From assembly GCA_000004985.1 (NCBI GenBank), contig GG738886.1: a stretch of 64,000 nt of DNA; one strand, written 5' to 3'. Every line of letters starts with the position of its first letter. Positions within the stretch are counted from its first letter, which is position 1. Shown one piece after another: positions 2,119 to 63,837 of this stretch. This DNA is from Naegleria gruberi. Lineage: Eukaryota. Under the pieces are notes generated by a model. The model saw only the letters and a program-made list of their open reading frames with translations, was not told where the DNA came from and did no database searches. The position numbers were made by a program, and so were the translations under genes.

Positions 2119-3498
2119 TTAATAGTTTCTAATGTTGATTGATTGTTTGATTGGGGAAGTTGAGGTGGATGGAGAATATGGATAACCTTGTTGATAATCA
2201 TTGTCCAAAACAGCAAGGAATTTCTTAAGGATGGCAGTTTGACCATCAATTCTCAAAGTGAAATCACGGTTGACATTTCTCCATGTGGAGCTATTACCCT
2301 TCTTTGGTGGGAAGACATAAGGTGGATTTGGATAATCAGAACCTCTCCAGTTACCAGTACTCATCATTAAAATGTTATCATCAATAACCCAATACTTTTC
2401 ATGTGAAAATTCCAAACATTGCTTGGCAGACAAGACAACATTAATATTGTTATCAACAAGCTTTCTATAACATTGATAAGCTTCAAGAGCTTCGGATTTA
2501 GCAAAGACATAGTGAGAAGCGAAAATCTTCAAATTGATACCCTTATTACCCAATTGGATAACATAATCACAGAGGTCAGGATGAGAAATTTCATAAATAC
2601 TAATCTTCAATGATTTTTTAACTTGATTCAAAGCAGACATCAAGAATCCATAAGCATAATCAGGACTAGCACTGATAGAAATATTGTAATTATCATTGAA
2701 TTCTTGAATATCACCAGAGGAAGCATCACAGTTTGCAAAGTGCATATTTTCTGGAATGGTGACAGTAGCAGTTGAGGTTTGAATCATATGAATATCACTT
2801 TTAGAATATTGACTATAATCAACATCCAATGGAACACCATGGAAGAAATCATATTCGAAAACTCCTTGAGAGAATTTAACAACACCAGCAGCATTATTGC
2901 ATTCATTAACCAAAATACCAGCTTCTCTGTTTCTTCTGAAACTAGTTTGAGAAAAGTTAATACTAGAAATGGCAGATTTACAACCATCAATAGTGATATA
3001 TTTGGCGTGTAAGAAAGTAGTGGTTGTGTAATATCTGACATCAGCACCTGCAATCTTTAAATATGTCAACAAGTCCATCTTTCCAGAACACATCTTGTCA
3101 TCATACTTGTTAGTTAAGAGACGAACTTTAACACCATGTTGAACAATTTGATTAATTAAAACTTGGAAAATTGGGAATTTTTCATTATTCAACAAGTCAG
3201 TAGCAGAACAACCCATACATCCATCTTTTGGATAGGTACATCCACTCCAACTGTCAAATCCTGGAATTGCAATATCAATAGTCTTCTTGGCACTCATCAC
3301 AAGTTCAGTCTCTTCCTTTGTAGAGTGATCCGGAGAGAAAAGAGGAGTTAAACCAATATTAGCACGAGGGATATTGAGAGGAAGGAAAGGACTATTGTAG
3401 GTGGTATTTTGTAAATCTGCCAACACGAGTTGTGTTGTTGTGAACAAAATTATTGCACACAACAAGGTGGCAAGAGAAATTTTGCTGATGGCTTTCAT
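2119..3498 (-). CDS. secreted phospholipase D-family protein with two HKD motifs
   Basis: 459-aa ORF with N-terminal signal peptide (MKAISKISLATLLCAIILFTTTQLVLA). Two HxKxxxxD motifs (HAKYITIDG and HEKYWVIDD), which define the PLD superfamily. Confidence 0.85.
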   Translation of the reverse strand: MKAISKISLATLLCAIILFTTTQLVLADLQNTTYNSPFLPLNIPRANIGLTPLFSPDHSTKEETELVMSAKKTIDIAIPGFDSWSGCTYPKDGCMGCSATDLLNNEKFPIFQVLINQIVQHGVKVRLLTNKYDDKMCSGKMDLLTYLKIAGADVRYYTTTTFLHAKYITIDGCKSAISSINFSQTSFRRNREAGILVNECNNAAGVVKFSQGVFEYDFFHGVPLDVDYSQYSKSDIHMIQTSTATVTIPENMHFANCDASSGDIQEFNDNYNISISASPDYAYGFLMSALNQVKKSLKISIYEISHPDLCDYVIQLGNKGINLKIFASHYVFAKSEALEAYQCYRKLVDNNINVVLSAKQCLEFSHEKYWVIDDNILMMSTGNWRGSDYPNPPYVFPPKKGNSSTWRNVNRDFTLRIDGQTAILKKFLAVLDNDYQQGYPYSPSTSTSPIKQSINIRNY

Positions 3499-4637: not shown

Positions 4638-7600
4638 ATGCCACAAGATAAAAGTGAACTTGACTGTGGTAAAGTACTTACTAATCAGGATAGTGGTGTT
4701 GGGTTTAGCACTATCAATACTAGTCCCCCGCATCAACAGTCGAGCGATTGTATTTCTAACATGAAGGAAAACCTAATTCCGGAGGTGAAGAATAATGATG
4801 AATTATCTGCATCATCTATTACTCTTGCTGTTCCGAACATTGATTGTGGAAGTAATACGACAAAGATGCCAACAACAAGTACTCTCGTTGTGGATGATAT
4901 CATTAAAAATAGGAGGAATATTGATGATAAAAGGTCTCTTGAAAATCGAGGAACGAGAACAGCCAGCCTGTCAATGCCAACAACTAATTATTTATTTCCA
5001 TCATCAAAAAGTAACTTAATTCCAATATTACCAAAAACTAAGGATCAGGAAAAGGAGAAAATGCAGAAAAACAAACTAACTTTTCAAAATTCGAGAAATT
5101 CTCTTTTTCAAAACTCTAACAAAACAACTTACACAAAAGTTGAAATGAACAAACAATCTAACGATAAGAGAGGACAAACGAAAATAGATCACCAACCCAA
5201 AAATCTAGAATTGCCCTCATTAGCATCAATTGTTTTAACACCAAATACTCCTAACTCGGTATCTAATGTCAATATTGAAACAGACGAATCAGAAATTAAC
5301 CCAATACTGGAATCAGTACCATTCTTTATATTTTTAAAAATTGGAATACTCAAGGAAAACTCAGAACCTAAATATTTAGAGGCTTATAGGGCTCTTTCTC
5401 AACAAAATCTATTCTTTATGACCTCTTGGTTTAGGTATTTTGGGATATATTTTGTTTTAGTATTTTTAACAATGTACAAGCTTGTCGGGATGCGAACAAT
5501 CTCTAGCTCTGTACTTTGCAACTTTTGCAGTGGAGGTTTTTAGTAATCTTTATCTGAATTATTTAACATGCTGTAAATCTCCAACTAGGGCAAGGAAGAA
5601 TGTAATTCATTTATGCAGAACAGTTCTGTCAACCTCTTATGGATTCATAATGCAAATGTATTACACTAAGCTATCCATATATATATTGACAATACTCAAA
5701 TTAATAATTTCTTGTCATATTTTTGGAGACCATCTTATCACCTCCTTAATATCTACAGTAATTTTCGTATCTGGTTCGCTTATTCCAATGATGATTTTGG
5801 GGTATCCAATAGAATCTATAGTAAGCAACGGGATAGTAATGACTTCCATAGCCATTATGTGCTTGTTCTTTTCAAAAATATATGCAGAAGAAAAAAGATA
5901 TCATTATAAACAAAGGTTTGCTTACATGCAGGAAAAGTATTTGAGCAATGAGAAAACTCACATGATTGCAAATATTTCACATGAAGCAAGGTATGTATTA
6001 CCAGTATCAGTTCGAATTAATTCAAATTCACATTTTGGAATTGTTTTAATTATTCCTATGTAGAAATCCATTGCATGGTATTATTGGAGCTTCAACAATT
6101 TTGAGACATGATATGGAAAAGAACAGTCATTCAGATAAAAGAAAAAAAAGAGGAAGAAAGAACAGCATTTTACAATCACCTTCTCATTCACCAATGAATG
6201 CAAAGAAAGGATTCTTACATGTTTCAAATGATGATGGACACTATTCGAGTGATTGTGAATCTTCATGTGGAGATTCAACAGCTGAACAACCGTATCTTGA
6301 ATTGGTGAATGATATTTATAATAATGCCAATTTGTTACTTCACATTTTCAGTACTTCACTTCAAATGACAAGTCTCGAAATGGGAAATATCAAATTGAAG
6401 AATGAACCATTCAATTTATTGGACACAATTGAATCAGTAATTTCAGTATTTTATAATATTGCAGCAGACAAGAATGTTTCACTTCACAGTTTTATTAATT
6501 TAAATTCTCTTCCAAACCAAGTGATAGGTGACCACGTTAGAGTTTCTCAAATATTAATGAACTTTGTGTCAAACTCTATCAAATATTCATCTAATGAGCA
6601 AGGAGAGAGTTCAGTAATTCTCAAGTGTGATATTTGTTCAGATGAAGAGCTCAAAAAGTTGAATGTTGAAAAAGAAAAAATAATTGAAATGTTAGACGAT
6701 AAGGAGGACATTGTTTTCGTTAAAATTGATTGTATTGATAATGGAAAAGGAATTGAAAAGGATAATATCAACAAGTTATTTAAAGCATTCCAAACTTTTG
6801 ATTTGAAATCAGCAAGTAACATGGACACAGGTGGAACAGTATTTGATCAATACTATTTGAAATCAATTTCAGGTAATACAAAAGGATCGAATGGAACGAG
6901 TTTACTATTGAGTAACAGAACAGGAGTTGGATTGAATATTAGCAAGCAACTTATTGAGAAGATGAAAGGATCTATTATAGTTAGCAGCGAAATAGGTAAA
7001 GGCACGACAATGTCTGTAATATTTCCTTTAAAGATAGCACCAACTCAATCTGCACAAAATCAAAGACTTGAAGAACTTAGTATAGATTTAGAAGATTTCA
7101 ACGTATTAATTATTGACAATGATGCACTCTTTTTGGATATAATGAAGGACTATGTTGCTCATATTTGTGCTAAAACTACGGTTACCACTGTTATAGACCC
7201 GAAAAGTATTACGGATATTGATGAGTCAAAACCATTGGTAGTAATTTATTCTGAACATCTCCATGCAGAAGTGAAACAAATCCTAAAATTGGTTTCTGTA
7301 GAAAAGATATTGATACCCATTGGATTGAGAGGAAGGACTAGAAAATATGCAACTATGAAGTATATTATCAAACCTGTAAAGGTTGACGATATGATAAGCG
7401 TATTGAACGAAAAACTCGACAAGCAAAAGAAGAAGATTAATTGTCAAAATATTATTACTCCACCTCCAGAGATAAATATCACAACTGATAATGTTCCAAC
7501 TATAGAGGTAGTAATACCAGAACCTGTACCTTCTAAACGAATACTGATAACAGATGATAATTTAATTAACAGAAAAGTGATGGAAAAGATGGTTCGATTG

Positions 7601-7915
7601 TTGGGATTTACTGAAGTTGATTGTGCATCGAATGGATTGGAATGTTTTGAAATGTACAAACAAAAACAATATTCAATCATTTTATTGGACTTGTTGATGC
7701 CAGTCATGTGTGGCAAGCAGAGTGTGAAACATATTCGAGAATTTGAAGAGAGTGAAGGAAGAAAACGAACACCAGTAATTGCCATCACTGCCAACATTTG
7801 GGAATCAGTTGATACTCTCTCACAACTTGGATTTGACTCTGTCATTTACAAACCAATCCTTATTGAAAAATTGAGGGAGGAAGTTGAACGGTTAACGCAA
7901 GAAAGCAACTCATAG
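4638..7915 (+). CDS. hybrid histidine kinase, copy 1 (HisKA H-box + HATPase_c + pseudo-receiver + C-terminal receiver domain)
   Basis: Low-complexity N-terminus, then TM segments. H-box ISHEA-R/NPLHGIIGAS is split by a 73-nt GTATGT..TAG intron (5991..6063), with the Arg codon split ag|a. N-box LMNFVSNSIKYS, G1 IDNGKGI, F FKAFQ, G2 GVGLNISKQLIEKMKGSIIVSSEIGKGTT. Receiver has ITDDN..., LLDLLMPVMCG (phospho-Asp) and YKP. Reading frame changes by +1 near 5470..5490 relative to copy 2 (ORFs 4638..5543 and 5482..6063 overlap). Confidence 0.85.
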
Positions 7916-8026
7916 CCCAAATATCAACAACCTACATAACAGTACCACATTTTTGGATGGTTTTTTTGGTGGATATAATTGTTTTTATTAAGGCCAAATA
8001 ATTCGCAAAATTAATATTTAAAAAAA

Positions 8027-11000
8027 ATGAATACATTGAAACCCCACAACGTGACTGGAACGAATTGTACCACGAGTTCTATCGGATCTTCATCCACAGT
8101 TGGAGACTTGGGAAATAGCAGTCTACAACAAATAAATCAAAAGTTTATTAGGGAAGATACAAAACCTACTCCTTCATTATCGGAAATCACTAATAATAAC
8201 AGAAACACAAATAATTTATTATCACCTTCTTCAACAACAAGTCCAACAAGTAGCAGAAGCATTCCAAAAACTAAATCTCCAATATCAAGATGGGATTCAG
8301 TACCTATTATCTCTTCGACAACTAACGTTTCAATAACAAATACTGAAGATATCTCTCCAAAGAGAAGTGAAAAACTCTCCCCAATAATTGTCCCAGAAAC
8401 AGCTGGTGTGTTTGAGGTGAGTTCAACACCCAGAAAGTCGTCCAGAATTAATGAACCACCACCCTCAACAAGAAACTCAATCATCCTCACACCAACAAAC
8501 TCCAAATTCATTTCTCAAACAAGCATACCTTTGGATGTGGACGATTCGAATGATAATAGTAATGAACAGATTCTTTCCTCAATTTCACTTTTTCAATTTA
8601 TCCAACTAATCATGCAAAAAAATCCTAACCCTAAATTTAGAGAAGCCCATCGACAAATTTCACAGCAAAATATTTATTCAATTACCAAATGGTTTAGCGT
8701 TTTGACTTTATATTTTTGTTTACTATTTATTGGAATGTACATAACATCAGAAAGTTCAGCATCTCCTATTGTATTTTTTGGCCTTTTTCCATTTGAAGTA
8801 GCCAACAATATGATATGCAATTATATAACTTGCTGTAAAGCTAGATCGGTTTATGCGAAAGCATCCATTCATATCTATAGAGCTGTTATCATTGCAACAC
8901 TTGCATTTATTTGGCAATATTTTTACCACGATATGCCTTTCTACCTGCTTACAATGATAAAACAAATCATTGCTTGTCACGTTTATGGAGAGGAAATTCT
9001 AATATCTTCAACTGCGTCTATAATCATTAGTACAGGAGCAATCTATCCACTCTATGTTCTGAATCAAGGAACAAAGAAGGTTATTGAGGTTTTCTTTTTA
9101 ATGGTGTCTGCTTCTGTGATAAGTTTGTTCTTTGCCTATGTTTATGCAGAAGAGAAGAGAAATCATTACAAACAAAGGTTTGCTTACATGCAGGAAAAGT
9201 ATTTGAGTAATGAGAAAACTCACATGATTGCAAATATTTCACACGAAGCAAGGTATGTAGTACAAGCATCATTTTCAATTAACTCCCATTTTTATCATTC
9301 CTATGTAGAAATCCACTGCATGGTATTATTGGAGCTTCAACAATTTTGAGACATGATATGGAAAAAAACAGTCATCCAGATAAAAGAAAAAAAAGAGGAA
9401 GAAAGAACAGCATTTTACAATCACCTTCTCATTCACCAATGAATGCAAAGAATGGATTCTTACATGTTTCAAATGATGATGGACATTATTCGAGTGATTG
9501 TGAATCTTCATGTGGAGATTCAACAGCTGAACAACCATATCTTGAATTGGTGAATGATATTTATAACAATGCCAATTTGTTACTTCACATTTTCAGTACT
9601 TCACTTCAAATGACAAGTCTTGAAATGGGAAATATCAAATTGAAGAATGAACCATTCAATTTATTGGACACAATTGAATCAGTAATTTCAGTATTTTATA
9701 ATATTGCAGCAGACAAGAATGTTTCACTTCACAGTTTTATTAATTTAAATTCTCTTCCAAACCTAGTATTAGGTGATCATGTAAGGTAAGTGAAATATCA
9801 ATGAGCTTCTAATCACGTCAGTAGAGTTTCTCAAATACTTATGAACTTCATATCCAATTCTATCAAATATTCATCTTCTGAATCTGGAGAGAGCTCAGTA
9901 ATTCTCAAGTGTGATATTTGTTCAGATGAAGAGCTCACATCACTGAACGTAGAGAAGGATAAAATAATAGAAATGCTTGATGATAAGGAGGACATTGTTT
10001 TCGTTAAAATTGATTGTATTGATAATGGAAAAGGAATTGAAAAGGATAATATCGGTAGCTTATTCAAAGCATTCCAAATTTTTGATCTCAAGAATAGTGA
10101 AAATATAACGGATACAAGTGGAACTGTATTTGACCAATACTATTTGAAATCAATTTCAGGTAATACAAAAGGATCGAATGGAACAAGTTACCTATTGAGT
10201 AACAGAACAGGAGTTGGATTGAATATTAGCAAGCAACTTATTGAGAAGATGAAAGGGTGCATTATAGTTAGCAGTGAGGTCGGAAAAGGAACAACCATGT
10301 CAGTGATATTCCCATTCAAAAAGAAAATTGACAATCCAAGTGTTGAACTTGTTATGCAATGTAAAGCATCGCTCAACACTTTCAAAGAGTTTGGAATCTT
10401 TTCATGTCATTATTATTGATAGTGAGACCCACTTTTTGAATCTTTTGGAGGATTATTTACATTTATTGAATCCTAATATAACTATTTTCAAATATGTGAA
10501 CACAGCTAGTATTAAGGAAATTGATTGTTCAAAATCATTGATTGTAATTTACTCTGAAAATCTTCACTATGAAGTCAAACACTTATTCAAGCAGTCAGTG
10601 ATGGAAAAAATTCTAATTCCAATAGGACATCGAGGAAAGATGAGAAGATTCACAAACATGAAATATGTAATCAAACCTCTTAAGGTTGATGAGTTGGTAA
10701 ATGTGTTGAATGAAAAAATTGAGAAACACAAAAAGAGAGTAAGCCATCAAACTACAGATTTTCCACCAGAAATTAAGGTCACAACAGAGAATATTGATTC
10801 TGTGCAGTCTTCTTCAAATAATATGCCTCTAAATGTTGAACCTCCTAGGGTTGAACCAATCACAGATTCCAAAAGAGTTTTAATAACAGATGATAATTTA
10901 ATTAACAGAAAAGTGATGGAAAAGATGGTTCGATTGTTGGGATTTACTGAAGTTGATTGTGCATCGAATGGATTGGAATGTTTTGAAATGTACAAACAAA

Positions 11001-11248
11001 AACAATATTCAATCATTTTATTGGACTTGTTGATGCCAGTCATGTGTGGCAAACAAAGTGTGAAACATATTCGAGAATTTGAAGAGAGTGAAGGAAGAAA
11101 ACGAACACCAGTAATTGCCATCACTGCCAACATTTGGGAATCAGTTGATACTCTCTCACAACTTGGATTTGATTCGGTCATTTACAAACCCATCCTTATT
11201 GAAAAATTGAGGGAGGAAATTGACAGGCTCCCAACCAACACCTCATAG
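8027..11248 (+). CDS. hybrid histidine kinase, copy 2 (tandem paralog of 4638..7915)
   Basis: Same architecture as copy 1. Intron 1 is 9253..9308 (56 nt, same position in the H-box). A second 36-nt in-frame GTAAGT..CAG intron at 9786..9821 is absent from copy 1. A +1 frame change falls between 10320 and 10390 (ORFs 9841..10419 and 10328..11248 overlap); a cryptic 37-nt GTTATG..AAG intron at 10351..10387 is an alternative. C-terminal receiver domain is protein-identical to copy 1. Confidence 0.8.
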
Positions 11249-11362: not shown

Positions 11363-11818
11363 ATGAGCGATTTAGTAAGAATCTTCAAGTCAGATATTGT
11401 CAATGCTCCAATCGACCAAGTGTGGCAGTTGGTGAGAAGTTTTAATGGTCTTCCACAATGGGCAGCTGGTATTTCAGCAAGTATTATCGAAAATGGTAGA
11501 GAAGATAATTCCATTGGTTGTGTCCGATCATTATCTTTGGCTGGTGGTGAAGAACCAATCCGAGAGGAATTATTATCCTTTGATGAGAAGAATCACACCT
11601 ATTCATACACTATCCTTGATGGACCACTCCCATTCAAGAATTACAAACACTATTATTCAACTATTACTTTGCGTGAAATTACAGAAAGCAACACAACATT
11701 CATTGAGTGGAAATCGGAATTTTTCTGTCCTTTGGGTGAACATGATAGTGCCAAACCAATTGTGGAAGGAGTTTATGTTGGAGGAATTAATGCATTGAAA
11801 AAGAAATTCTCTCAATAA
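11363..11818 (+). CDS. SRPBCC / Bet v1-like (polyketide-cyclase-like) small ligand-binding protein
   Basis: 151-aa ORF, A-rich ATG context. The pattern (VWQLVRSFNGLPQWAAGISAS...WKSEFFCPLGEHDSAKPIVEGVYVGGINAL) fits Polyketide_cyc2/Bet v1-fold proteins. Confidence 0.65.
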   Translation: MSDLVRIFKSDIVNAPIDQVWQLVRSFNGLPQWAAGISASIIENGREDNSIGCVRSLSLAGGEEPIREELLSFDEKNHTYSYTILDGPLPFKNYKHYYSTITLREITESNTTFIEWKSEFFCPLGEHDSAKPIVEGVYVGGINALKKKFSQ

Positions 11819-12201: not shown

Positions 12202-14709
12202 ATGATTCAAGAGCACTTAAACGGCGACTCCACCTCTGTGGAAAGAACCGTTTTCCAACAAGATTCCTCACCCATCCGTCTTCGTTCATTAAAACCAAGT
12301 CACCAACTTTCTCCTTCGTATAAATCACCAAAATCACAAACACCTTCAAAAACTAAACTTTCACAATCTCCTCCACCTTCATCGAACAGTAAGAGAATGA
12401 TGAGAGCAAATCATGCTCGCTGTCAAGCTTTTGAAAAATCTCCAGATTTGCGAATGCAAAAAGTTTCACATGATAAGGAAAATCAAGAAATGGACATTAG
12501 TCCACATAATAACGAAACTATTCTTTCACCACCCAAGTTGGTGTTGAGTAAATCGAATTCTGGATTGAGAAAGCCACTGAGTCCAATTTCTCCTCAAATG
12601 ATGGAAGATTCTCCATTGGAAAATATTAAACGAAAGACACCTAATCGTTATTCACCTTATTTATTGAAATCTGTATTGAAGAATGCAAATTCACCACGAA
12701 ATGTTTCACCACTCGTTCGTAACAGTGCTACCTTTAAGAGAAAATCACCACACAATCGATCTACTCCAAATAATTATTCGAAACATTCGAATGATCCTAA
12801 TAGAATGAGTGAATCACCAGATGCAGACTGTATCCAATTAGAAACTCCACCTCACATCCTCCAACAAGAAGACAATAAGAAATTCATTGGTGAACAAAGT
12901 ACCATCCGTGTGAAACCAATCCAATTCCAAGCTCCAACCTCAAGTGCCAACGAACCATTCTCACCAATTGCCCAAACTAATCACATTCCACAACAAGCAA
13001 CATCTTCCACATTCAGATCACCATTCAAAACTCCAAGTTACATTAAAAAGAGACAAGCTCTTGCTGAGGATTTGGGAATGGCCTTTGAGGATAGTTATTC
13101 CAGATCTGCAAAGAAGAATGCTACCACTCAAAATCCACTTAAAAATCCATTCACACCAAATAGTTTTAAACAAATTAAGGTAATTCCTGATAAGGCATTT
13201 AGAATGATGGTTGGAAATACAGCTCAACAACAAGTGGTTGAAGAACCTAAAAAGAAGAAATCAATCATTCGTTCAATGAGAGATTATAGAAAGAATAAGA
13301 AGGAATCACTGAAAAGTAAATTGAGAGGTGATAGTCCACCTAAGGATTATTCCTCATCTACTGATTCATTAAAGAAGAGTAGATCTCCTGCCAGAAAGAG
13401 AAAGTTTGATGAAACTGAAGAAGAAATTCAAGGAGGTGCCACAGTTTTAAGTAATTTGGGTGTTCTCATTGATCAGTCAACTGTAACCAGTTCAGCACCA
13501 GTAGCCAACACTAACCAAAATGATTTCATGATTGCAGCAGATATCGAAATTGAAAGTGATGGAGAAGATGTTGTCATTGAAGAATTGGAACATGCAGCAT
13601 GTGAATCACCAACTAAGAAAATCAAATCAGAACAAGGTAGACCACTTTGGAGTAGATTAAAGAAGGCTCTCACAAAGAAGAAATCAAATCCAGAAGAAGA
13701 CGATGAAGAATCCAAACAACCAAAGAATACACTCAGAAGAAAGCTCTCTAAAAAGGGTCTTCAAGCATTCAGATCTAATCAAGTTCAACAAGTGCAAAAT
13801 AACTTGTCAAATCCTAATTTACTATCAACTCAAGATTTCAATAATGAAGGTCCACTGAGAAAACAAAGAAGTTTTGGAGAAAATTATTTTTCCTCAATGG
13901 TTCATGGAAGAAAGCAACAACAACAACAAATGGAAGAACAATCAGCTGATTTACACAATATTTCATTTGACGAAACTGATTTAAACAAACACAAGAATCG
14001 TCAATTCCAACTTCAAGATGATTTACAAGAACAATTTTTGAATAATATGAAAATGGTCAAACATACTGATTCTAATTTAAAGTCCTCATTCACTAACAAT
14101 ACAACCATTGCTGCCACTACTAACGAATGTGTGAAAAATTTCAAAATTCCATCACTCAATTTGAAGAATGTACCAACTTTACAATTAGCTCCAAAAGAAG
14201 AAAAGCCAACTTTCACATATTCTTTCGTTGAGATTATTAACACTCCACATCATAGAGAATACTTTACAAAACATTGTATTAATGAGTACAATTCAGAAAA
14301 TATTGAATTTTGGTGTGCTGTCAGATTAGAATATTCCTATTTAAGAGATAGATCACAAAGATATCAAATGGCTATCAAACTTCTCAATGAATACGTTGAT
14401 TTATCAAGTGATAAGGCATTAAACATTGATAAGAAATCCATTCTTCAAGTCAAGACAAGAATCAATGACGAAACTGATGACCTCTCTGATTTATTCGATT
14501 CCATTACTAACCATGTAGAAACTGTAATGATGGACTCTTTCAAGAGATTCCAACTCCTTCCAATCTACCAGGAAATGATTGCTCACCACAAAACCATCAT
14601 CTCTGAGAATAACAAGACAGATTTGGATACTCCTAGAGGAACCAACTTTAAGAATAAGATGTTTAGTTTCCTTTCTCCAAAAGGTCTCATCAAACAACAA
14701 CATGATTAA
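12202..14709 (+). CDS. RGS-domain protein with long Ser/Pro/Asn-rich low-complexity N-terminus
   Basis: 835-aa ORF. C-terminal RGS domain (FVEIINTPHHREYFTKHCINEYNSENIEFWCAVRLEY...MMDSFKRFQLLPIYQEM). Confidence 0.8.
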   Translation: MIQEHLNGDSTSVERTVFQQDSSPIRLRSLKPSHQLSPSYKSPKSQTPSKTKLSQSPPPSSNSKRMMRANHARCQAFEKSPDLRMQKVSHDKENQEMDISPHNNETILSPPKLVLSKSNSGLRKPLSPISPQMMEDSPLENIKRKTPNRYSPYLLKSVLKNANSPRNVSPLVRNSATFKRKSPHNRSTPNNYSKHSNDPNRMSESPDADCIQLETPPHILQQEDNKKFIGEQSTIRVKPIQFQAPTSSANEPFSPIAQTNHIPQQATSSTFRSPFKTPSYIKKRQALAEDLGMAFEDSYSRSAKKNATTQNPLKNPFTPNSFKQIKVIPDKAFRMMVGNTAQQQVVEEPKKKKSIIRSMRDYRKNKKESLKSKLRGDSPPKDYSSSTDSLKKSRSPARKRKFDETEEEIQGGATVLSNLGVLIDQSTVTSSAPVANTNQNDFMIAADIEIESDGEDVVIEELEHAACESPTKKIKSEQGRPLWSRLKKALTKKKSNPEEDDEESKQPKNTLRRKLSKKGLQAFRSNQVQQVQNNLSNPNLLSTQDFNNEGPLRKQRSFGENYFSSMVHGRKQQQQQMEEQSADLHNISFDETDLNKHKNRQFQLQDDLQEQFLNNMKMVKHTDSNLKSSFTNNTTIAATTNECVKNFKIPSLNLKNVPTLQLAPKEEKPTFTYSFVEIINTPHHREYFTKHCINEYNSENIEFWCAVRLEYSYLRDRSQRYQMAIKLLNEYVDLSSDKALNIDKKSILQVKTRINDETDDLSDLFDSITNHVETVMMDSFKRFQLLPIYQEMIAHHKTIISENNKTDLDTPRGTNFKNKMFSFLSPKGLIKQQHD

Positions 14710-14848: not shown

Positions 14849-16554
14849 ATGCTCTCCACTGATCAGGCAAGACAATATCAAGCAGCACAGAAGAATACAA
14901 AGGCTGCCAATAGTAGTAAAGTCAATAACAATATTAGTACTACAACAACAAGCAGTACAAGGAGTAATTCATCAGCTTCACCTTTGGATGCTAGTAATTA
15001 TTTTAACAACACAACGGGAAGAGAAAAGTTGGATATCACAAAGGAGGAAATAGATAAGATTGAAAAATGTATGAAGGACCCTGAGTTTTTAAAGTTGTTT
15101 GAGGAATATGTGAATGAAATTTCCGATCCTAATGCATTGAGGGAAACTGACATGTATATTAAACAATTGGAGAAGGAGGGAACAAGTTTACCCAAGTCAA
15201 TAGTCATTCCGAAGGCTGTAAGTATGAACGTGATGATAGAATTATGTTAATAGATGTAGTGTTTTTGTATTCAATGTGGAACTGAAGATAAGAAGGGGAA
15301 GAACTATATTGTAAATGTTTGTTCGAGTGATAGTGTTGAAATTCACAAGGAAGAGAAATCTAAAAAAGGCGAAAAATGTAAGTTGTGACAATTCAATTAA
15401 GGTCTTATCCAAAACTTTCAGCTGGTACCCAATTTAGTGTTCCATTGGTCGTCGGAAATCCAAAAGTTGAGGAAAAACAAGTCGTTCTCGATGTCATTTT
15501 TAACACAAAAACTTGTGAAAAGGCTGATAAGGATGTTTTGTTTAAGGATTTTATCTGTGGAATGGCTTTGGACTATGTGGAGAAGAAATGTAATGTTAAA
15601 TTGAAAAAGCAATATTATACAATGATGCTTGGAGTTAAAAGTGTTGGAGAGCCATCAGCTCTGACAGTTCAAGCCCCTGGTCAAAAAACTGATAAGAACG
15701 ATCCATTAGCTCCTCAAAGCGTGCTTAAGGATATTCAGGAAAGTAGAGAAAAGGCCAATCAAATCTACTCTACAGAACAAAAGGAACTGAAATTGACCAA
15801 AGAAGACCCAACTCCTAAGAAATCAAACCTCATTCAAGAAGTTAATGATCCAATAACTCCAAAGTATGAAATTGTATACAGGAATAGTTTTGATATGTCA
15901 GAATATACATATTCAACTCCAACAGCTACAAATAGAGCAAAACCAGCTGAGATTGGAATTAGAATATTCCTTCCAATGTTGGATAGTATATCAGGAGTGG
16001 ACCTGGATGTGTCTGAAAACTTTTTGAAATTGGATTGTACACATCCTCAAAAGTATCATTTGGATCTTCATTTGCCGTACAGTGTGTTGAGTGACAAGGT
16101 TTCCGCCAAATTTGAAAAGAAAACCAGAACTTTGAAAGTCAACTTAATTGTCACACCTGACCCAGTGCAGAAAGTTGTCTTTGATGAGATTCCAAAAGAA
16201 CAGGAAGAGGAAGAGAAAGTTACAGTTGTGGAAGAATTAAACAAGGTTGAAGAAGTTGCAGAAACTGTCACAGAAATCCCTCAAACAGAATTTAAACTTT
16301 CTAAAGCGCCATCTCCAAATCAATTCTCTTCGTTCGTTCAAAAGATTCCTCAAGAAATTGATATTGCTGCAACTGAATTGAAACCTGTAAATATCCATGC
16401 CGAACCACCAAAAACCCAAATTGTAAATAGAGTTGAAAGGAATGATACCACAACAAAGAAGAGTGTATCATTTGCTCCACCAGTCAGCGAAGAAGTGAAA
16501 CCAGTCCAACAAGCAAGCGAGTTCAAAAATAAGTATTTATTTGAACTGGACTAG
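14849..16554 (+). CDS. PIH1-domain protein (PIH1D1/Kintoun family), 3 exons
   Basis: join(14849..15217, 15260..15377, 15422..16554). Exon 1 has the PIH1 N-motif (KDPEFLKLFEEYVNEISDPNALRE). A 118-nt middle exon missed by the ORF track encodes CFCIQCGTEDKKGKNYIVNVCSS (cf. PGFCIKT..GKVFINIC). Exon 3 has VPLVVGNP...VVLDVIFN and a C-terminal CS-like region. Donors are GTAAGT at 15218 and 15378; acceptors are TAG at 15259 and CAG at 15421. Confidence 0.75.
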
Positions 16555-26669: not shown

Positions 26670-27844
26670 AGGAAATTCTACTTTGAATTGTAAATTTGAT
26701 AATTACATGATTGCTGGAACTGTCTCACCACCAACATGTTATGGTAAAGCTCAAAGTGATTCTTCAGTTTGTAATGGACATGGTCAATGTGTTGGACCAG
26801 ATACTTGTTCATGCTCAAGTGGATGGGGTGGCACTTATTGTAATATTACCAGTTGTAATGGAATTGTTTTGACTGATTCATCAGTTTGTAGTGGTCATGG
26901 CCAATGTGTTTCTGCTGAAAATTGTGTTTGTAATAGGTAGGTTTTTTCACTTGTTGTGTGATTTTTTTAACACAATTGGTTGAAGTGGTTGGAGTGGAAC
27001 TTATTGTGCTGAAACTACCTGTAATGGTATTTCATCTGCCAATTCATCTGTCTGTAGTGGACATGGTACATGTACTACCAAGGATACTTGTACATGTAAG
27101 ACTGGTTATGGAGATCAATATTGTCAATCATTCATTTGTTATGGATTGACTGGTTCCAATGCTGCCGTTTGTTCTGGACATGGTACATGTTCTGCTTATA
27201 ATACTTGTAAATGTAATACTGGATACTCTGGTTCTCAATGTCAAAACTATACCTGTAATGCCATTGCCCAAAATAATGCCAATGTCTGTTCAGGACATGG
27301 TTCTTGTGTTGATTACAATACTTGTAAATGTTCAGGTGGATACACAGGTACTTATTGCTCACAAGTTGCTTGTAATGGAATTCTTCCAACAGATTCATCT
27401 GTTTGTAGTGGCCGTGGTAAATGTGTTGGTCCAAACAATTGCACATGTACCAACTCAACTCAGTATGGAGGTGAATTCTGTCAAGTTCCAAAATGTGGTG
27501 GAATTTTGGCAACAGATTCTTCAGTTTGTGGTGGAAAGACCAATTATGTTTGCTCTGGTGTAAATACTTGTACATGTAAGACTGGATATACTGGAGCTAA
27601 TTGTAACTCATTCTCATGTTTTGGAATTGATTCCAACTCAACAAGTGTCTGTGCAGGAAGCGGAAAGTGTGTTGCATTGGATACTTGTCAATGCACTGAT
27701 GGAACTTCAGGCAATTGTACTTCCTCAACTAGTACAGATTCCAGCACAAGACAATCACATGCCTCTAATCAATATGGCCAAACCATGTGGATCCAAATTG
27801 TATTGTGTACTGTCTTGTTATGGATTGGAGCTATTGTTTTTTAA
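26670..27844 (+). CDS. tenascin-type EGF-repeat (CxGHGxC) membrane-anchored region; probably downstream exons of the cathepsin B-like gene
   Basis: Open frame from ~26670 with no in-frame ATG and no signal peptide. It begins NCKFDNYMIAGTVSPP, which resembles the cathepsin B C-terminus HCGIESEVVAGIP. About 11 EGF-like repeats follow (CNGHGQCVGPDTCSCSSGWGGTYC...). A 49-nt intron at 26937..26985 (ag|GTAGGT..GAAG) restores ...CVCN-S-GWSGTYC. C-terminal hydrophobic tail IQIVLCTVLLWIGAIVF (TM or GPI signal). Stop at 27842..27844. Confidence 0.7.
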
Positions 27845-62181: not shown

Positions 62182-63837
62182 ATGCAACAAGCAACTTCAA
62201 GTCTAGAGGCTAACAAAGACAATGATAATCAACAAGACTCCACCTCACCATCATCCCATCAGTCTTTTCCATTAAATTCTAACAATGTTTCGAATAGGAG
62301 AACAACAATCACAGAAGAGTTGTTTAATCGTGGAGTTCTCTACGGAAAAGAGAAGGAATATGAAAAAGCCTTTCAATGTTTTATGAAAGTTGCTGAAGAG
62401 TGTGAGTGTGCTGATACACAATTTAAAATTGCTTATTATTATCATATTGGTTTGGGTGTTGAGAAGGATATTCGAAAGGCTTTCGAATGGTATTTGAAGA
62501 GTGCAGAGAATGGTTTTGCCAAAGCACAGTGTAATGTTGGATTGCTGTATCGTTTTGCAGAGGGAGTTGAACAGAATCTACCGAAAGCTTTCGAATTCCA
62601 TTTAAGGGCTGCTAAACAAGGTATAACAACCTCTATGCTTGCTGTTGCTTGTTCATACGAGTTGGGAATGGGAATAATGAGAGATATTTCGAAATCATTT
62701 GAATGGCTTTTGAAAGCTGCTGAGAATGGTGATGTAGGCGCTCAATATTATGTCGGCCATGCATATGAGATTGGAGAGGGTGTTGAACCAGATGATACAA
62801 AATCATTTGAATGGTATTTGAAAGCAGCTGAACAAATGGACGTAAGAGCACAATTAGCAATTGGCATTTCTTTTTATTGTGGAAGAGGAGTCACGGAAAA
62901 TCAAAGAAAATCATTCGAATGGTTTCTGAAAGCTGCTGAACAAGGTGATAAATCAGCACAATTTTATGTTGGATGTGCATACGATTCTGGAGAGGGTGTT
63001 GAGAAGAATAGGTATAAAGCATTTGAATGGTATCTTAAATCGGCTGAGAATGGTCATAAAGATGCACAATTCAATGTTGTTTATGCATACGAAAAGGGAG
63101 ATGGGGTTGAAGAGTGTTTCAGCAAAACAGTGTTTTGGTTAGCGAAAAGATTGAATGGTAATTTTCAATTCATTGAAAACCCTGAAGAGCAATTTGGATT
63201 AAAGGATTTTTTGTCTGAAGATTTGGCACATTTTGAGAATATCACTGAACCTGTGATTGTCAGATTTGAAGAGAGGGATTTTACAATTTCCTACGAGTTG
63301 TTGAAACATTCAAAATACTTTTCAACAATGTTGAATTTAAACTGGAATAGGTTTAATGAAAATGAGAACAAACATATTGTGCTCGATTTGAGATCTATTC
63401 AATCTGAAATATTTCAAGAACAACTTGATTGCAGTCAGATATTTGAGAATTATATTAATTGCTTAAGAGGTGGATTACCAACTAGTTGCGAAATGCAGTT
63501 GCCAGTGATTTATTTGGCAAGATATTTGGGAGATGATTCGTGTATTTTAAAAATTATGAAGAAGTCGAGTTTGTTAATGAGGTATTATTTTCTATTTCAA
63601 TTGGAAAGTCATACTAAACTTCATGTAGCCTTGGCAAGTTGTTTCTCTTCCAAACTAGCACCTACAAGAGACCTTTCAGAGGGTGTACTTGAAACACTAC
63701 TTGTTCAAAGTGAATTATCTTGGCCTGCGAAAGAAAGGATTTTTGGAGAGTATAGTCAAAGATTCAAAACACCAATTTCGTTAACGTTCAGTAAGTCATT
63801 CATTATTAACAATTATGATATTAAGCTTAATAGATAG
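62182..63837 (+). CDS. Sel1-like repeat (SLR/TPR-like) protein with C-terminal BTB/POZ domain
   Basis: 551 aa. About seven Sel1 repeats (KAFEWYLKSAENG..AQ..VG..Y..G.GVE.D..KAFEW...), then a BTB-like segment (PVIVRFEERDFTISYELLKHSKYFSTMLNLNW...HIVLDL). Confidence 0.8.
   Translation: MQQATSSLEANKDNDNQQDSTSPSSHQSFPLNSNNVSNRRTTITEELFNRGVLYGKEKEYEKAFQCFMKVAEECECADTQFKIAYYYHIGLGVEKDIRKAFEWYLKSAENGFAKAQCNVGLLYRFAEGVEQNLPKAFEFHLRAAKQGITTSMLAVACSYELGMGIMRDISKSFEWLLKAAENGDVGAQYYVGHAYEIGEGVEPDDTKSFEWYLKAAEQMDVRAQLAIGISFYCGRGVTENQRKSFEWFLKAAEQGDKSAQFYVGCAYDSGEGVEKNRYKAFEWYLKSAENGHKDAQFNVVYAYEKGDGVEECFSKTVFWLAKRLNGNFQFIENPEEQFGLKDFLSEDLAHFENITEPVIVRFEERDFTISYELLKHSKYFSTMLNLNWNRFNENENKHIVLDLRSIQSEIFQEQLDCSQIFENYINCLRGGLPTSCEMQLPVIYLARYLGDDSCILKIMKKSSLLMRYYFLFQLESHTKLHVALASCFSSKLAPTRDLSEGVLETLLVQSELSWPAKERIFGEYSQRFKTPISLTFSKSFIINNYDIKLNR

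What the first reader, a model, noticed from the sequence alone, without database searches (positions are those of the whole stretch)
4638..11248. Tandem hybrid histidine-kinase paralogs with patchwork near-identity
Two adjacent genes share one architecture: TM region, H-box split by an intron at the identical codon, HATPase, pseudo-receiver, receiver. The H-box/early catalytic block and the C-terminal receiver domain are ~98-99% identical at the nucleotide level, including third positions. The low-complexity N-termini and the middle of the kinase core are strongly diverged. This mosaic is what ongoing gene conversion, or duplication followed by relaxed divergence, would leave. The receiver domain is kept identical, which suggests both kinases signal to the same downstream phosphorelay partner.
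Basis: seen in the sequence. Interest (0 to 1): 0.55.

Follow-up and report, generated by a model that had tools for sequence, protein, structure and literature searches.

The report
Gene conversion between tandem Naegleria kinases
Two neighbouring sensor-kinase genes of the amoeba Naegleria gruberi are old duplicates that keep copying stretches of sequence onto each other; this is a clean but ordinary case of gene conversion, and in this assembly both copies also carry frame-breaking changes that the reference gene models hide.

Summary
The window is Naegleria gruberi. The genes are NAEGRDRAFT_51156 (4638-7915) and NAEGRDRAFT_51157 (8027-11248). Both have a multi-TM region, HisKA, HATPase_c, a CheY-fold pseudo-receiver and a receiver, with the H-box intron in the same codon.

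Identity is a mosaic:
- 97.9% over 475 nt (6044-6518).
- 98.5% over 336 nt (7547-7882).
- 94.9% over 117 nt (5881-5997).
- Three HATPase patches at 96-100%.
- About 50-60% elsewhere.

Synonymous divergence is saturated in the diverged parts (dS 1.6-3) and 0.07-0.11 in the tracts. The clustering is significant (runs test z = -7.2). N. lovaniensis has one gene at the syntenic locus. The best reading is an old lineage-specific tandem duplication followed by repeated interlocus gene conversion. "Recent duplication plus relaxed divergence" is rejected.

- Gene 2 has a second, 39-nt intron. It is ancestral, and gene 1 has lost it precisely.
- Gene 1 has a +1 frameshift in TM1.
- Gene 2 has a 2-nt deletion relative to another strain.

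Receiver identity comes from conversion, so it does not show a shared downstream partner. This is a new example of a known process; interest is modest.

The parts
4638..7915 (+). Gene 1, hybrid histidine kinase NAEGRDRAFT_51156 (XP_002674047.1). Exon 1 is 4638-5990, intron 1 is 5991-6063, and the fused exon 2/3 is 6064-7915.
   Evidence: ORFs and three-frame translation; 100% match to P0001; Pfam.
5470..5543 (+). +1 frameshift inside the first transmembrane segment of gene 1. Frames 0 and 1 overlap here. The segment is 109 nt where gene 2 has 108 nt of coding sequence.
   Evidence: Three-frame translation aligned to gene 2 and N. lovaniensis. The reference models P0001 and P0004 both jump from the donor at 5435 over the TM region.
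5991..6063 (+). Gene 1 intron 1 (73 nt, phase 2, in the Arg codon of the H-box HEAR|NPLHG). Its core, 5998-6043, is diverged from the gene 2 intron.
   Evidence: N. lovaniensis has an intron at the same site and phase.
5881..5997 (+). Conversion tract A1 (partner 9143-9259), 94.9% identical, dS 0.36: an older or partial event.
6044..6518 (+). Conversion tract A2 (partner 9289-9763), 97.9% identical, dS 0.068. It includes a fast-evolving disordered insert between the H-box and the N-box.
   Evidence: The insert is not conserved in N. lovaniensis.
6540..6541 (+). Site in gene 1 where ancestral intron 2 has been lost precisely.
6601..6969 (+). HATPase mosaic. Patches H1 6601-6653 (96%), H2 6698-6769 (100%) and H3 6831-6969 (96%) are separated by blocks of 68% identity whose synonymous sites are saturated.
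7091..7420 (+). Pseudo-receiver domain of gene 1 (partner about 10394-10723 in gene 2). Not converted: 49% amino-acid identity, dS 1.6.
7547..7882 (+). Receiver conversion tract (partner 10883-11218), 98.5% identical with no amino-acid difference. It coincides with the Pfam Response_reg domain (about 7541-7885).
8027..11248 (+). Gene 2, hybrid histidine kinase NAEGRDRAFT_51157 (XP_002674048.1). Exons are 8027-9252, 9309-9785 and 9825-11248.
9253..9308 (+). Gene 2 intron 1 (56 nt), at the same codon and phase as in gene 1.
9786..9824 (+). Gene 2 intron 2: 39 nt, GT..AG, phase 2, contains an in-frame stop. It sits in the Arg codon of GDHVR|VSQ at the N-box and is absent from gene 1.
   Evidence: It is identical in the independent contig L001. 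N. lovaniensis has a 59-nt intron at the same site and phase.
10355..10362 (+). 2-nt deletion in gene 2: the window reads ATGCAATG where strain L001 reads ATGCAGAATG. This shifts the frame between HATPase and pseudo-receiver.
   Evidence: P0002 is a continuous 470-aa ORF across this point.

Best explanation
The two genes come from an old tandem duplication in the N. gruberi lineage. It happened after the split from N. lovaniensis, which has one gene at the syntenic site.

Since then the copies have diverged to saturation at silent sites. The exception is those segments that stayed similar enough to pair. There, non-reciprocal homologous recombination between the misaligned neighbours (interlocus gene conversion) has repeatedly overwritten one copy with the other.

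At least five or six tracts of different ages remain: A1, A2, three short HATPase patches and the receiver.

Tract edges sit where homology stops:
- the diverged, indel-bearing core of intron 1;
- the site where gene 2 has a 39-nt intron and gene 1 has none;
- the fast-evolving linkers around the receiver.

What is shown and what is inferred:
- Shown: the mosaic, the synonymous-site contrast, synteny with a single-copy orthologue, and the intron loss.
- Inferred: the mechanism (heteroduplex formation and repair or gap repair, mitotic or meiotic), the number and order of events, and that heterologies set the tract borders.
For: - dS by segment: TM 1.9, pseudo-receiver 1.6, linkers 2.3-3.2, against A2 0.068, the receiver tract 0.11 and A1 0.36. 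In 45-nt bins the HATPase alternates between dS 0 and saturated.
- Clustering of synonymous differences among conserved codons: 129 runs against 183.5 +/- 7.6 expected, z = -7.2, no permutation of 100,000 with as few runs. It is also significant inside the catalytic core alone (p = 5e-5).
- Tract A2 is 98% identical across a disordered insert that N. lovaniensis does not conserve. Protein-level constraint therefore cannot explain the identity.
- Single-copy orthologue in synteny in N. lovaniensis, with PLD upstream and RGS and PIH1 downstream. Willaertia also has a single copy.
- In unconverted regions gene 1 and gene 2 are closer to each other (36% and 49% amino-acid identity) than either is to N. 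lovaniensis (16-22% and 35-36%).
- An independent metagenome contig reproduces the gene 2 mosaic at 99% identity, so it is not an artefact of one assembly.
- Differences between that strain and the window are concentrated inside the tracts: 11 of 13 substitutions in 48% of the length, p = 0.008.
- A second gene-1-type copy (P0004) carries the gene 2 state at one of the few tract-A2 amino-acid differences.
- Both of the last two points fit exchange that continued after the strains or haplotypes separated.
Against: - With only two paralogues and no second species carrying both copies, the classical test cannot be run. That test is phylogenetic incongruence between tracts and flanks (GENECONV on several taxa).
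- The tracts largely coincide with the conserved domains, so part of the pattern at non-synonymous sites is ordinary constraint.
- Read depth could not be checked.
- The strain evidence rests on one short contig that may itself be chimeric across the repeat. Without the receiver tract the enrichment is only p = 0.055.
Confidence: 0.85

Rival explanations
1. Recent duplication followed by relaxed or accelerated divergence of some modules. On this view the near-identical blocks are simply the parts that have not yet changed.
For: The diverged parts (low-complexity N-terminus, linkers, TM sensor region) are the kinds of sequence that evolve fast at the protein level.
Against: - Synonymous sites in the diverged parts are saturated (dS 1.6-3.2), while neighbouring tracts have dS 0.07-0.11. 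Neutral sites cannot differ about 20-fold within one young duplicate.
- Conserved HATPase codons a few nucleotides from a 72-nt identical block differ at almost every third position.
- The copies differ by loss of an ancestral intron.
Confidence: 0.03
2. Assembly artefact: reads from the two paralogues or from two haplotypes were merged, producing falsely similar blocks.
For: - N. gruberi NEG-M is heterozygous, and a gene-1-type copy sits on a separate 11.9-kb scaffold.
- Read depth could not be examined.
Against: - The tracts are not identical: 1.5-5% differences are spread along them.
- An independent metagenome assembly reproduces gene 2 from tract A2 through the receiver at 99% identity, including the patches and intron 2.
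- P0004 independently shows tract A and the receiver joined to gene-1-type flanks.
Confidence: 0.03
3. The tracts were homogenised through spliced RNA: cDNA-mediated conversion. This would also explain why tract A2 is almost exactly exon 2 of gene 2 and why gene 1 lost intron 2.
For: - Tract A2 (9289-9763) nearly fills exon 2 of gene 2 (9309-9785).
- The intron-1 core between A1 and A2 is diverged.
- Gene 1 lacks intron 2 precisely.
Against: - The 80 nt around the intron-loss site are among the most diverged parts of the kinase core (73-80% identity, dS about 0.9). A cDNA of gene 2 would have left identity on both sides.
- Identity of tract A2 starts about 20 nt inside intron 1 (6044), which a spliced template cannot supply.
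- Gene 1 keeps intron 1.
- Heterologies acting as tract barriers explain the same borders more simply.
Confidence: 0.05
4. Selection on the nucleotide sequence itself (codon use, mRNA structure, an embedded element) keeps the blocks identical.
For: The tracts overlap conserved domains. There is no amino-acid change in the receiver tract.
Against: - GC3 and codon composition of the tracts are unremarkable.
- The same domains in N. lovaniensis are only 52-60% identical at the protein level.
- The disordered insert is as identical as the catalytic motifs.
- No further copies of these blocks occur in the window.
Confidence: 0.02

Closest known systems
Interlocus (ectopic) gene conversion with concerted evolution of tandem duplicates, as in primate gamma-globin genes, tubulin genes and yeast paralogues (my own background knowledge)
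   Same: Old duplicates; discrete tracts of tens to hundreds of bases with near-zero silent divergence set in diverged sequence; tracts of different ages; borders at heterologies.
   Different: Nothing in principle. I found no report of it for these genes in two papers I searched by keyword: a survey of eukaryotic histidine kinases (PMC6324907) and the Naegleria pangenome paper (PMC9928731).
Membrane-bound hybrid histidine kinases of Naegleria gruberi (24 counted in PMC6324907)
   Same: Multi-TM N-terminus with no known sensor domain, HisKA, HATPase_c and a C-terminal receiver.
   Different: - This subfamily carries an extra CheY-fold pseudo-receiver between the kinase and the receiver. It is shared with other Naegleria and Willaertia paralogues.
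- The two reference models lack the TM region. Model 51156 (gene 1) also lacks the H-box, and model 51157 (gene 2) keeps the H-box but skips exon 2 and the pseudo-receiver start. They were spliced around frameshifts.
Pseudo-receiver domains such as CikA PsR (PDB 5jyu); the ETR1 receiver domain (1dcf) is another close structural match
   Same: CheY-like fold (TM-score 0.6-0.77 to receivers) without the phospho-acceptor Asp.
   Different: Sequence relation to any receiver is barely detectable (E about 0.04-0.05). Its role here is unknown.
Precise intron loss in one paralogue (models: reverse transcriptase, genomic deletion, double-strand-break repair; PMC3652778 abstract)
   Same: Exact removal of a phase-2 intron with the reading frame intact. 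The intron is retained in the sister paralogue and in the orthologue.
   Different: The mechanism cannot be assigned. The upstream intron 1 is retained and the flanks show no sign of recent conversion.

Membership tests
Hybrid histidine kinase (two-component sensor) | HisKA dimerisation/phospho-acceptor domain with the H-box histidine | tested here: met
   Pfam HisKA, E = 1e-7 in both genes. The motif ISHEARNPLHG is split by intron 1.
Hybrid histidine kinase (two-component sensor) | HATPase_c catalytic domain | tested here: met
   Pfam HATPase_c, E = 2e-16 (gene 1) and 2e-13 (gene 2). By my reading of the alignment, the N-box is QILMNF.SNSIKYS, G1 is DNGKGI and G2 is TGVGLNIS.
Hybrid histidine kinase (two-component sensor) | C-terminal receiver with the acidic pocket, phospho-acceptor Asp, Thr and Lys | tested here: met
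   Pfam Response_reg, E about 1e-17. D9, D53, T86 and K107 are invariant in the family alignment.
Hybrid histidine kinase (two-component sensor) | Uninterrupted reading frame giving a full-length protein | tested here: not met
   Gene 1 has a +1 frameshift at 5470-5543. Gene 2 has a 2-nt deletion at about 10358 relative to L001. Whether these are real alleles or consensus errors is untested.
Hybrid histidine kinase (two-component sensor) | Autophosphorylation and phosphotransfer activity | not testable with these tools
   Needs biochemistry.
Interlocus gene conversion between paralogues | Paralogues anciently diverged outside the candidate tracts | tested here: met
   dS is 1.6-3.2 in the TM region, pseudo-receiver and linkers. 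The flanks are unrelated.
Interlocus gene conversion between paralogues | Discrete tracts with far lower silent-site divergence, more clustered than chance | tested here: met
   dS is 0.07-0.11 in the tracts. Runs test z = -7.2, p < 1e-5.
Interlocus gene conversion between paralogues | Identity extends into sequence that is not under protein constraint | tested here: met
   The disordered insert in tract A2 and the last 20 nt of intron 1 are included. The intron core is not.
Interlocus gene conversion between paralogues | Tree incongruence between tracts and flanks across taxa that carry both copies | not testable with these tools
   N. lovaniensis and Willaertia have a single copy. No other N. 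gruberi-clade genome was reachable.
Interlocus gene conversion between paralogues | Tract content varies between strains or haplotypes (ongoing exchange) | tested here: inconclusive
   L001 differs from the window mostly inside tracts (p = 0.008, or 0.055 without the receiver). P0004 shares one gene 2 state. L001 may be chimeric.
Pseudo-receiver domain | CheY-like fold | tested here: met
   AlphaFold model with pLDDT 93.7. The top 50 PDB matches are almost all receiver domains.
Pseudo-receiver domain | Phospho-acceptor Asp missing | tested here: met
   In the profile-profile alignment to the family's own receiver, the Asp column falls in a gap. The end of strand 3 reads VIYSE or IIYQE and varies across homologues.
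Unitary pseudogene | Loss of coding constraint (dN/dS near 1) | tested here: not met
   Within the tracts dN/dS is 0 to 0.12. In the diverged regions dN is far below dS. Any disruptions must be recent, allele-specific or errors.

The most novel reading that the evidence does not exclude
The near-identical tracts may act as recombination anchors that let whole modules move between the two kinases, or change copy number, in natural populations.

The metagenome contig L001 joins a gene-2-type HATPase, pseudo-receiver and receiver to a gene-1-type tail, then the intergenic spacer, then a gene 2 N-terminus. If real, this junction has one of two origins. It could be the product of unequal crossing-over in the receiver tract, giving a three-gene array. 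Or it could be a conversion of at least 1.6 kb that replaced the middle of gene 1.

Either would be direct evidence of ongoing homologous exchange in a lineage whose sexual cycle has never been observed.
Probability: 0.2. Interest if true: 0.5.

Novelty: new member of a known kind. Interest (0 to 1): 0.28.

Why it matters
- It documents interlocus gene conversion, with tract borders and relative ages, in a heterolobosean. That is useful background for the debate on recombination and sex in Naegleria.
- It shows that paralogue identity in a signalling domain need not mean shared function.
- It flags three reference gene models (NAEGRDRAFT_51156, 51157, 76511) as mis-spliced. All three skip the transmembrane region, and 51156 also lacks the phospho-acceptor histidine. 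This affects published counts and classifications of Naegleria histidine kinases.
- The process itself is textbook, so a specialist would not be surprised.

Tried and rejected
- Searching for further strains or species carrying both copies. A scan of JGI metagenome contigs with six peptide patterns found no relative. A second protein search with the gene 1 N-terminus and TM region returned only P0004 and P0003. P0004's contig could not be fetched. A multi-taxon conversion test was therefore impossible.
- A third copy in the window as a possible donor: none at the DNA or protein level.
- GC-biased conversion: GC3 of the tracts (0.23-0.34) is no higher than in unconverted parts.
- A small intron rescuing gene 2's frame at 10328-10419. 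By hand-reading the sequence, I found only 16-, 25- and 46-nt GT..AG candidates with poor donors. L001 is a continuous ORF there, so a deletion is the simpler reading.
- A 23-nt intron for gene 1's frameshift has the wrong length class. A 109-nt GT..AG span (5435-5543) does restore the frame, but it removes TM1, which is homologous coding sequence in gene 2 and N. lovaniensis. I kept it only as an untested possibility.
- Pfam and sequence profiles alone did not establish the pseudo-receiver (E about 0.04-0.05). The structure prediction did.
- cDNA-mediated conversion was considered because tract A2 nearly matches exon 2. It was rejected because the flanks of the intron-loss site are diverged and identity begins inside intron 1.
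Full report
**Source and genes.**
- The window has 31-36% G+C and short GT..AG introns.
- A protein search identifies it as Naegleria gruberi. Gene 1 is 100% identical to P0001, on a 358,576-bp scaffold. Part of gene 2 is P0003, on the same scaffold.
- The accessions are NAEGRDRAFT_51156 / XP_002674047.1 and NAEGRDRAFT_51157 / XP_002674048.1.
- A third N. gruberi model, P0004 (NAEGRDRAFT_76511), lies on an 11.9-kb scaffold. It is gene-1-type throughout and is probably the other haplotype.

**Checking the observation.**
- A global alignment of 4638-7915 with 8027-11248 shows a sharp mosaic.
- Near-identical tracts:
  - A1, 5881-5997: 94.9%.
  - A2, 6044-6518: 97.9%.
  - H1, H2 and H3, within 6601-6969: 96.2%, 100% and 96.4%.
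  - Receiver tract, 7547-7882: 98.5%.
- Between these tracts identity is 68-80% inside the kinase core. It is about 50-60% in the N-terminus, TM region, pseudo-receiver and linkers. The 5' flanks and 3' tails are unrelated.
- Exact runs reach 170, 142 and 116 nt.
- No other copy of these blocks exists in the window.

**Architecture.**
- Both genes have HisKA, HATPase_c and Response_reg, preceded by several hydrophobic segments.
- The 110-residue segment between kinase and receiver is conserved in Naegleria and Willaertia homologues. By sequence it matches receivers only weakly (E about 0.05).
- Its AlphaFold model is confident (pLDDT 93.7). Its PDB matches are nearly all receiver domains, including ETR1 and the CikA pseudo-receiver. 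The phospho-acceptor Asp is not there. 'Pseudo-receiver' is therefore correct.
- Intron 1 interrupts the Arg codon of HEAR|NPLHG in phase 2 in both genes. The same holds in the N. lovaniensis orthologue.
- In Willaertia the intron sits four codons further on, in phase 0.

- *A second intron in gene 2.*
  - It lies at 9786-9824: 39 nt, GT..AG, phase 2, with an in-frame stop. It sits in the Arg codon of GDHVR|VSQ.
  - It is identical in an independent contig.
  - N. lovaniensis has a 59-nt intron at exactly this site and phase. The intron is therefore ancestral, and gene 1 has lost it precisely (site 6540|6541).
- *A frameshift in gene 1.*
  - The reading frame shifts by +1 within TM1 (5470-5543). 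The two frames together align without a gap to gene 2, but the segment is 109 nt against 108.
- *A deletion in gene 2.*
  - Gene 2 has a 2-nt deletion at about 10358 relative to the metagenome contig L001, where the ORF is continuous.
- *Effect on the reference models.*
  - The reference models avoid these breaks with long artificial introns. All three lose the TM region.
  - Model 51156 also loses the H-box. Model 51157 keeps it but skips exon 2 and the pseudo-receiver start.

**Why gene conversion.**
- Nei-Gojobori estimates by segment:
  - dS is 1.9 in the TM region, 1.6 in the pseudo-receiver and 2.3-3.2 in the linkers.
  - dS is 0.068 in A2, 0.11 in the receiver tract and 0.36 in A1.
  - In the HATPase domain, 45-nt bins alternate between dS = 0 and saturation even where the amino acids are conserved.
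- Among 571 codons with the same, degenerate amino acid, synonymous differences form 129 runs against 183.5 +/- 7.6 expected. This gives z = -7.2, and no permutation out of 100,000 gave as few. The result holds within the catalytic core alone.
- Tract A2 includes a disordered, lysine/serine-rich insert that N. lovaniensis does not conserve. Constraint on the protein therefore cannot be the cause.
- A recent duplication with relaxed divergence is excluded by the saturated silent sites.

**Age and polarity.**
- N. lovaniensis has one orthologue in conserved synteny. PLD lies upstream (window 2158-3417, minus strand). RGS (12412-14691) and PIH1 (15026-16551) lie downstream.
- Willaertia also has one copy.
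- In unconverted regions the two N. gruberi genes are closer to each other than to N. lovaniensis: 36% against 16-22% in the TM region, and 49% against 35-36% in the pseudo-receiver.
- The duplication is therefore specific to the N. gruberi lineage, but old. The tracts are much younger and of unequal age.

**Tract borders.**
- A2 begins 20 nt inside intron 1, after a diverged core with a 17-nt indel. It ends 22 nt before the intron-2 presence/absence site.
- The receiver tract matches the Pfam domain borders (about 7541-7885) and is flanked by unalignable linkers.
- I infer that conversion is confined to stretches that remain homologous and stops at heterologies.
- A cDNA-templated route was considered. 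It does not fit, because the sequence around the intron-loss site is among the most diverged in the core.

**Evidence from another strain.**
- L001 is a 2,518-bp contig from ENA sample ERZ929261. It matches gene 2 at 9568-11223 with 99.0% identity. It then continues into a gene-1-type tail, the intergenic spacer and the gene 2 N-terminus, matching 7547-8730 at 96.5%.
- This could be a de Bruijn-graph chimera, because exact repeats exceed the k-mer of 127 suggested by the contig name. It could also be a real product of unequal crossing-over or of a long conversion. I cannot decide between these.
- Independently of that question, 11 of the 13 substitutions between L001 and the window's gene 2 fall inside the tracts, which make up 48% of the compared length (p = 0.008). 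Without the receiver tract the figure is p = 0.055.
- P0004 has Asn in NAKNGF, as gene 2 does, where the main-scaffold gene 1 has Lys.
- Both observations suggest, but do not prove, that exchange continued after the strains or haplotypes separated.

**Function.**
- Within the tracts dN/dS is 0-0.12, so the lineages have been under purifying selection. The frame disruptions must be recent, allele-specific or consensus errors.
- Identity of the receiver follows from conversion. It gives no independent support for a shared phosphorelay partner, although that remains plausible.

**Comparison with what is known.**
- This is standard concerted evolution of tandem duplicates.
- Keyword look-ups in the eukaryotic histidine-kinase survey found only a count of 24 N. 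gruberi kinases, mostly membrane-bound, and no mention of this pair (PMC6324907).
- The Naegleria pangenome paper lists recombination and mismatch-repair genes but no such case (PMC9928731).

**Verdict.** This is a new example of a known kind, of modest interest.

Noticed in passing
window 4638-7915 and 8027-11248: The reference protein models XP_002674047.1 (882 aa), XP_002674048.1 (465 aa) and XP_002668571.1 (572 aa) are spliced around frameshifts with artificial long introns. All three omit the transmembrane region. XP_002674047.1 also omits the H-box histidine, and the other two skip part or all of the HATPase and pseudo-receiver region.
   Followed up: yes
window 5435-5543: A GT..AG-bounded span of 109 nt would restore gene 1's frame if spliced, at the cost of deleting TM1. 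Both JGI models use the donor at 5435. Possible intronisation of a frameshifted coding segment, or coincidence.
   Followed up: partly
window 9786-9824; L002 11914-11972; L003 about 11048-11099: - Intron 2 is only 39 nt in N. gruberi gene 2, against 59 nt with a TACTAAC box in N. lovaniensis.
- Willaertia lacks it.
- Willaertia's H-box intron lies four codons downstream of the Naegleria site, in phase 0 (intron sliding or independent gain).
   Followed up: partly
L001 1320-2518: The metagenome contig joins a gene-2-type body through the receiver to a gene-1-type tail, the spacer and a gene 2 N-terminus. This is either an assembly chimera across the repeat or a real unequal-crossover or long-conversion product.
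   Followed up: partly
one search hit list: N. lovaniensis has a 41%-identical syntenic orthologue (P0005). The best N. fowleri hit is only 32% and pairs with a different N. lovaniensis paralogue. The orthologue may be missing from N. fowleri.
   Followed up: no
window 11363-11818: An intronless 151-aa SRPBCC / Polyketide_cyc2 gene lies directly downstream of gene 2. At the syntenic N. lovaniensis position there is instead an acetyltransferase and a 713-aa gene.
   Followed up: partly
window 26737-27459: Tandem 117-nt units encode cysteine-rich EGF_2 / teneurin-like EGF repeats, followed by a C-terminal hydrophobic segment.
   Followed up: partly
window 62476-63110: 108-nt units encode at least six Sel1 repeats in a 551-aa ORF.
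   Followed up: partly
window 5991-6063 vs 9253-9308: The core of intron 1 is about 48% identical with a 17-nt indel, although both flanking exon stretches are 95-98% identical. Conversion has skipped the intron, so A1 and A2 are probably separate events.
   Followed up: partly
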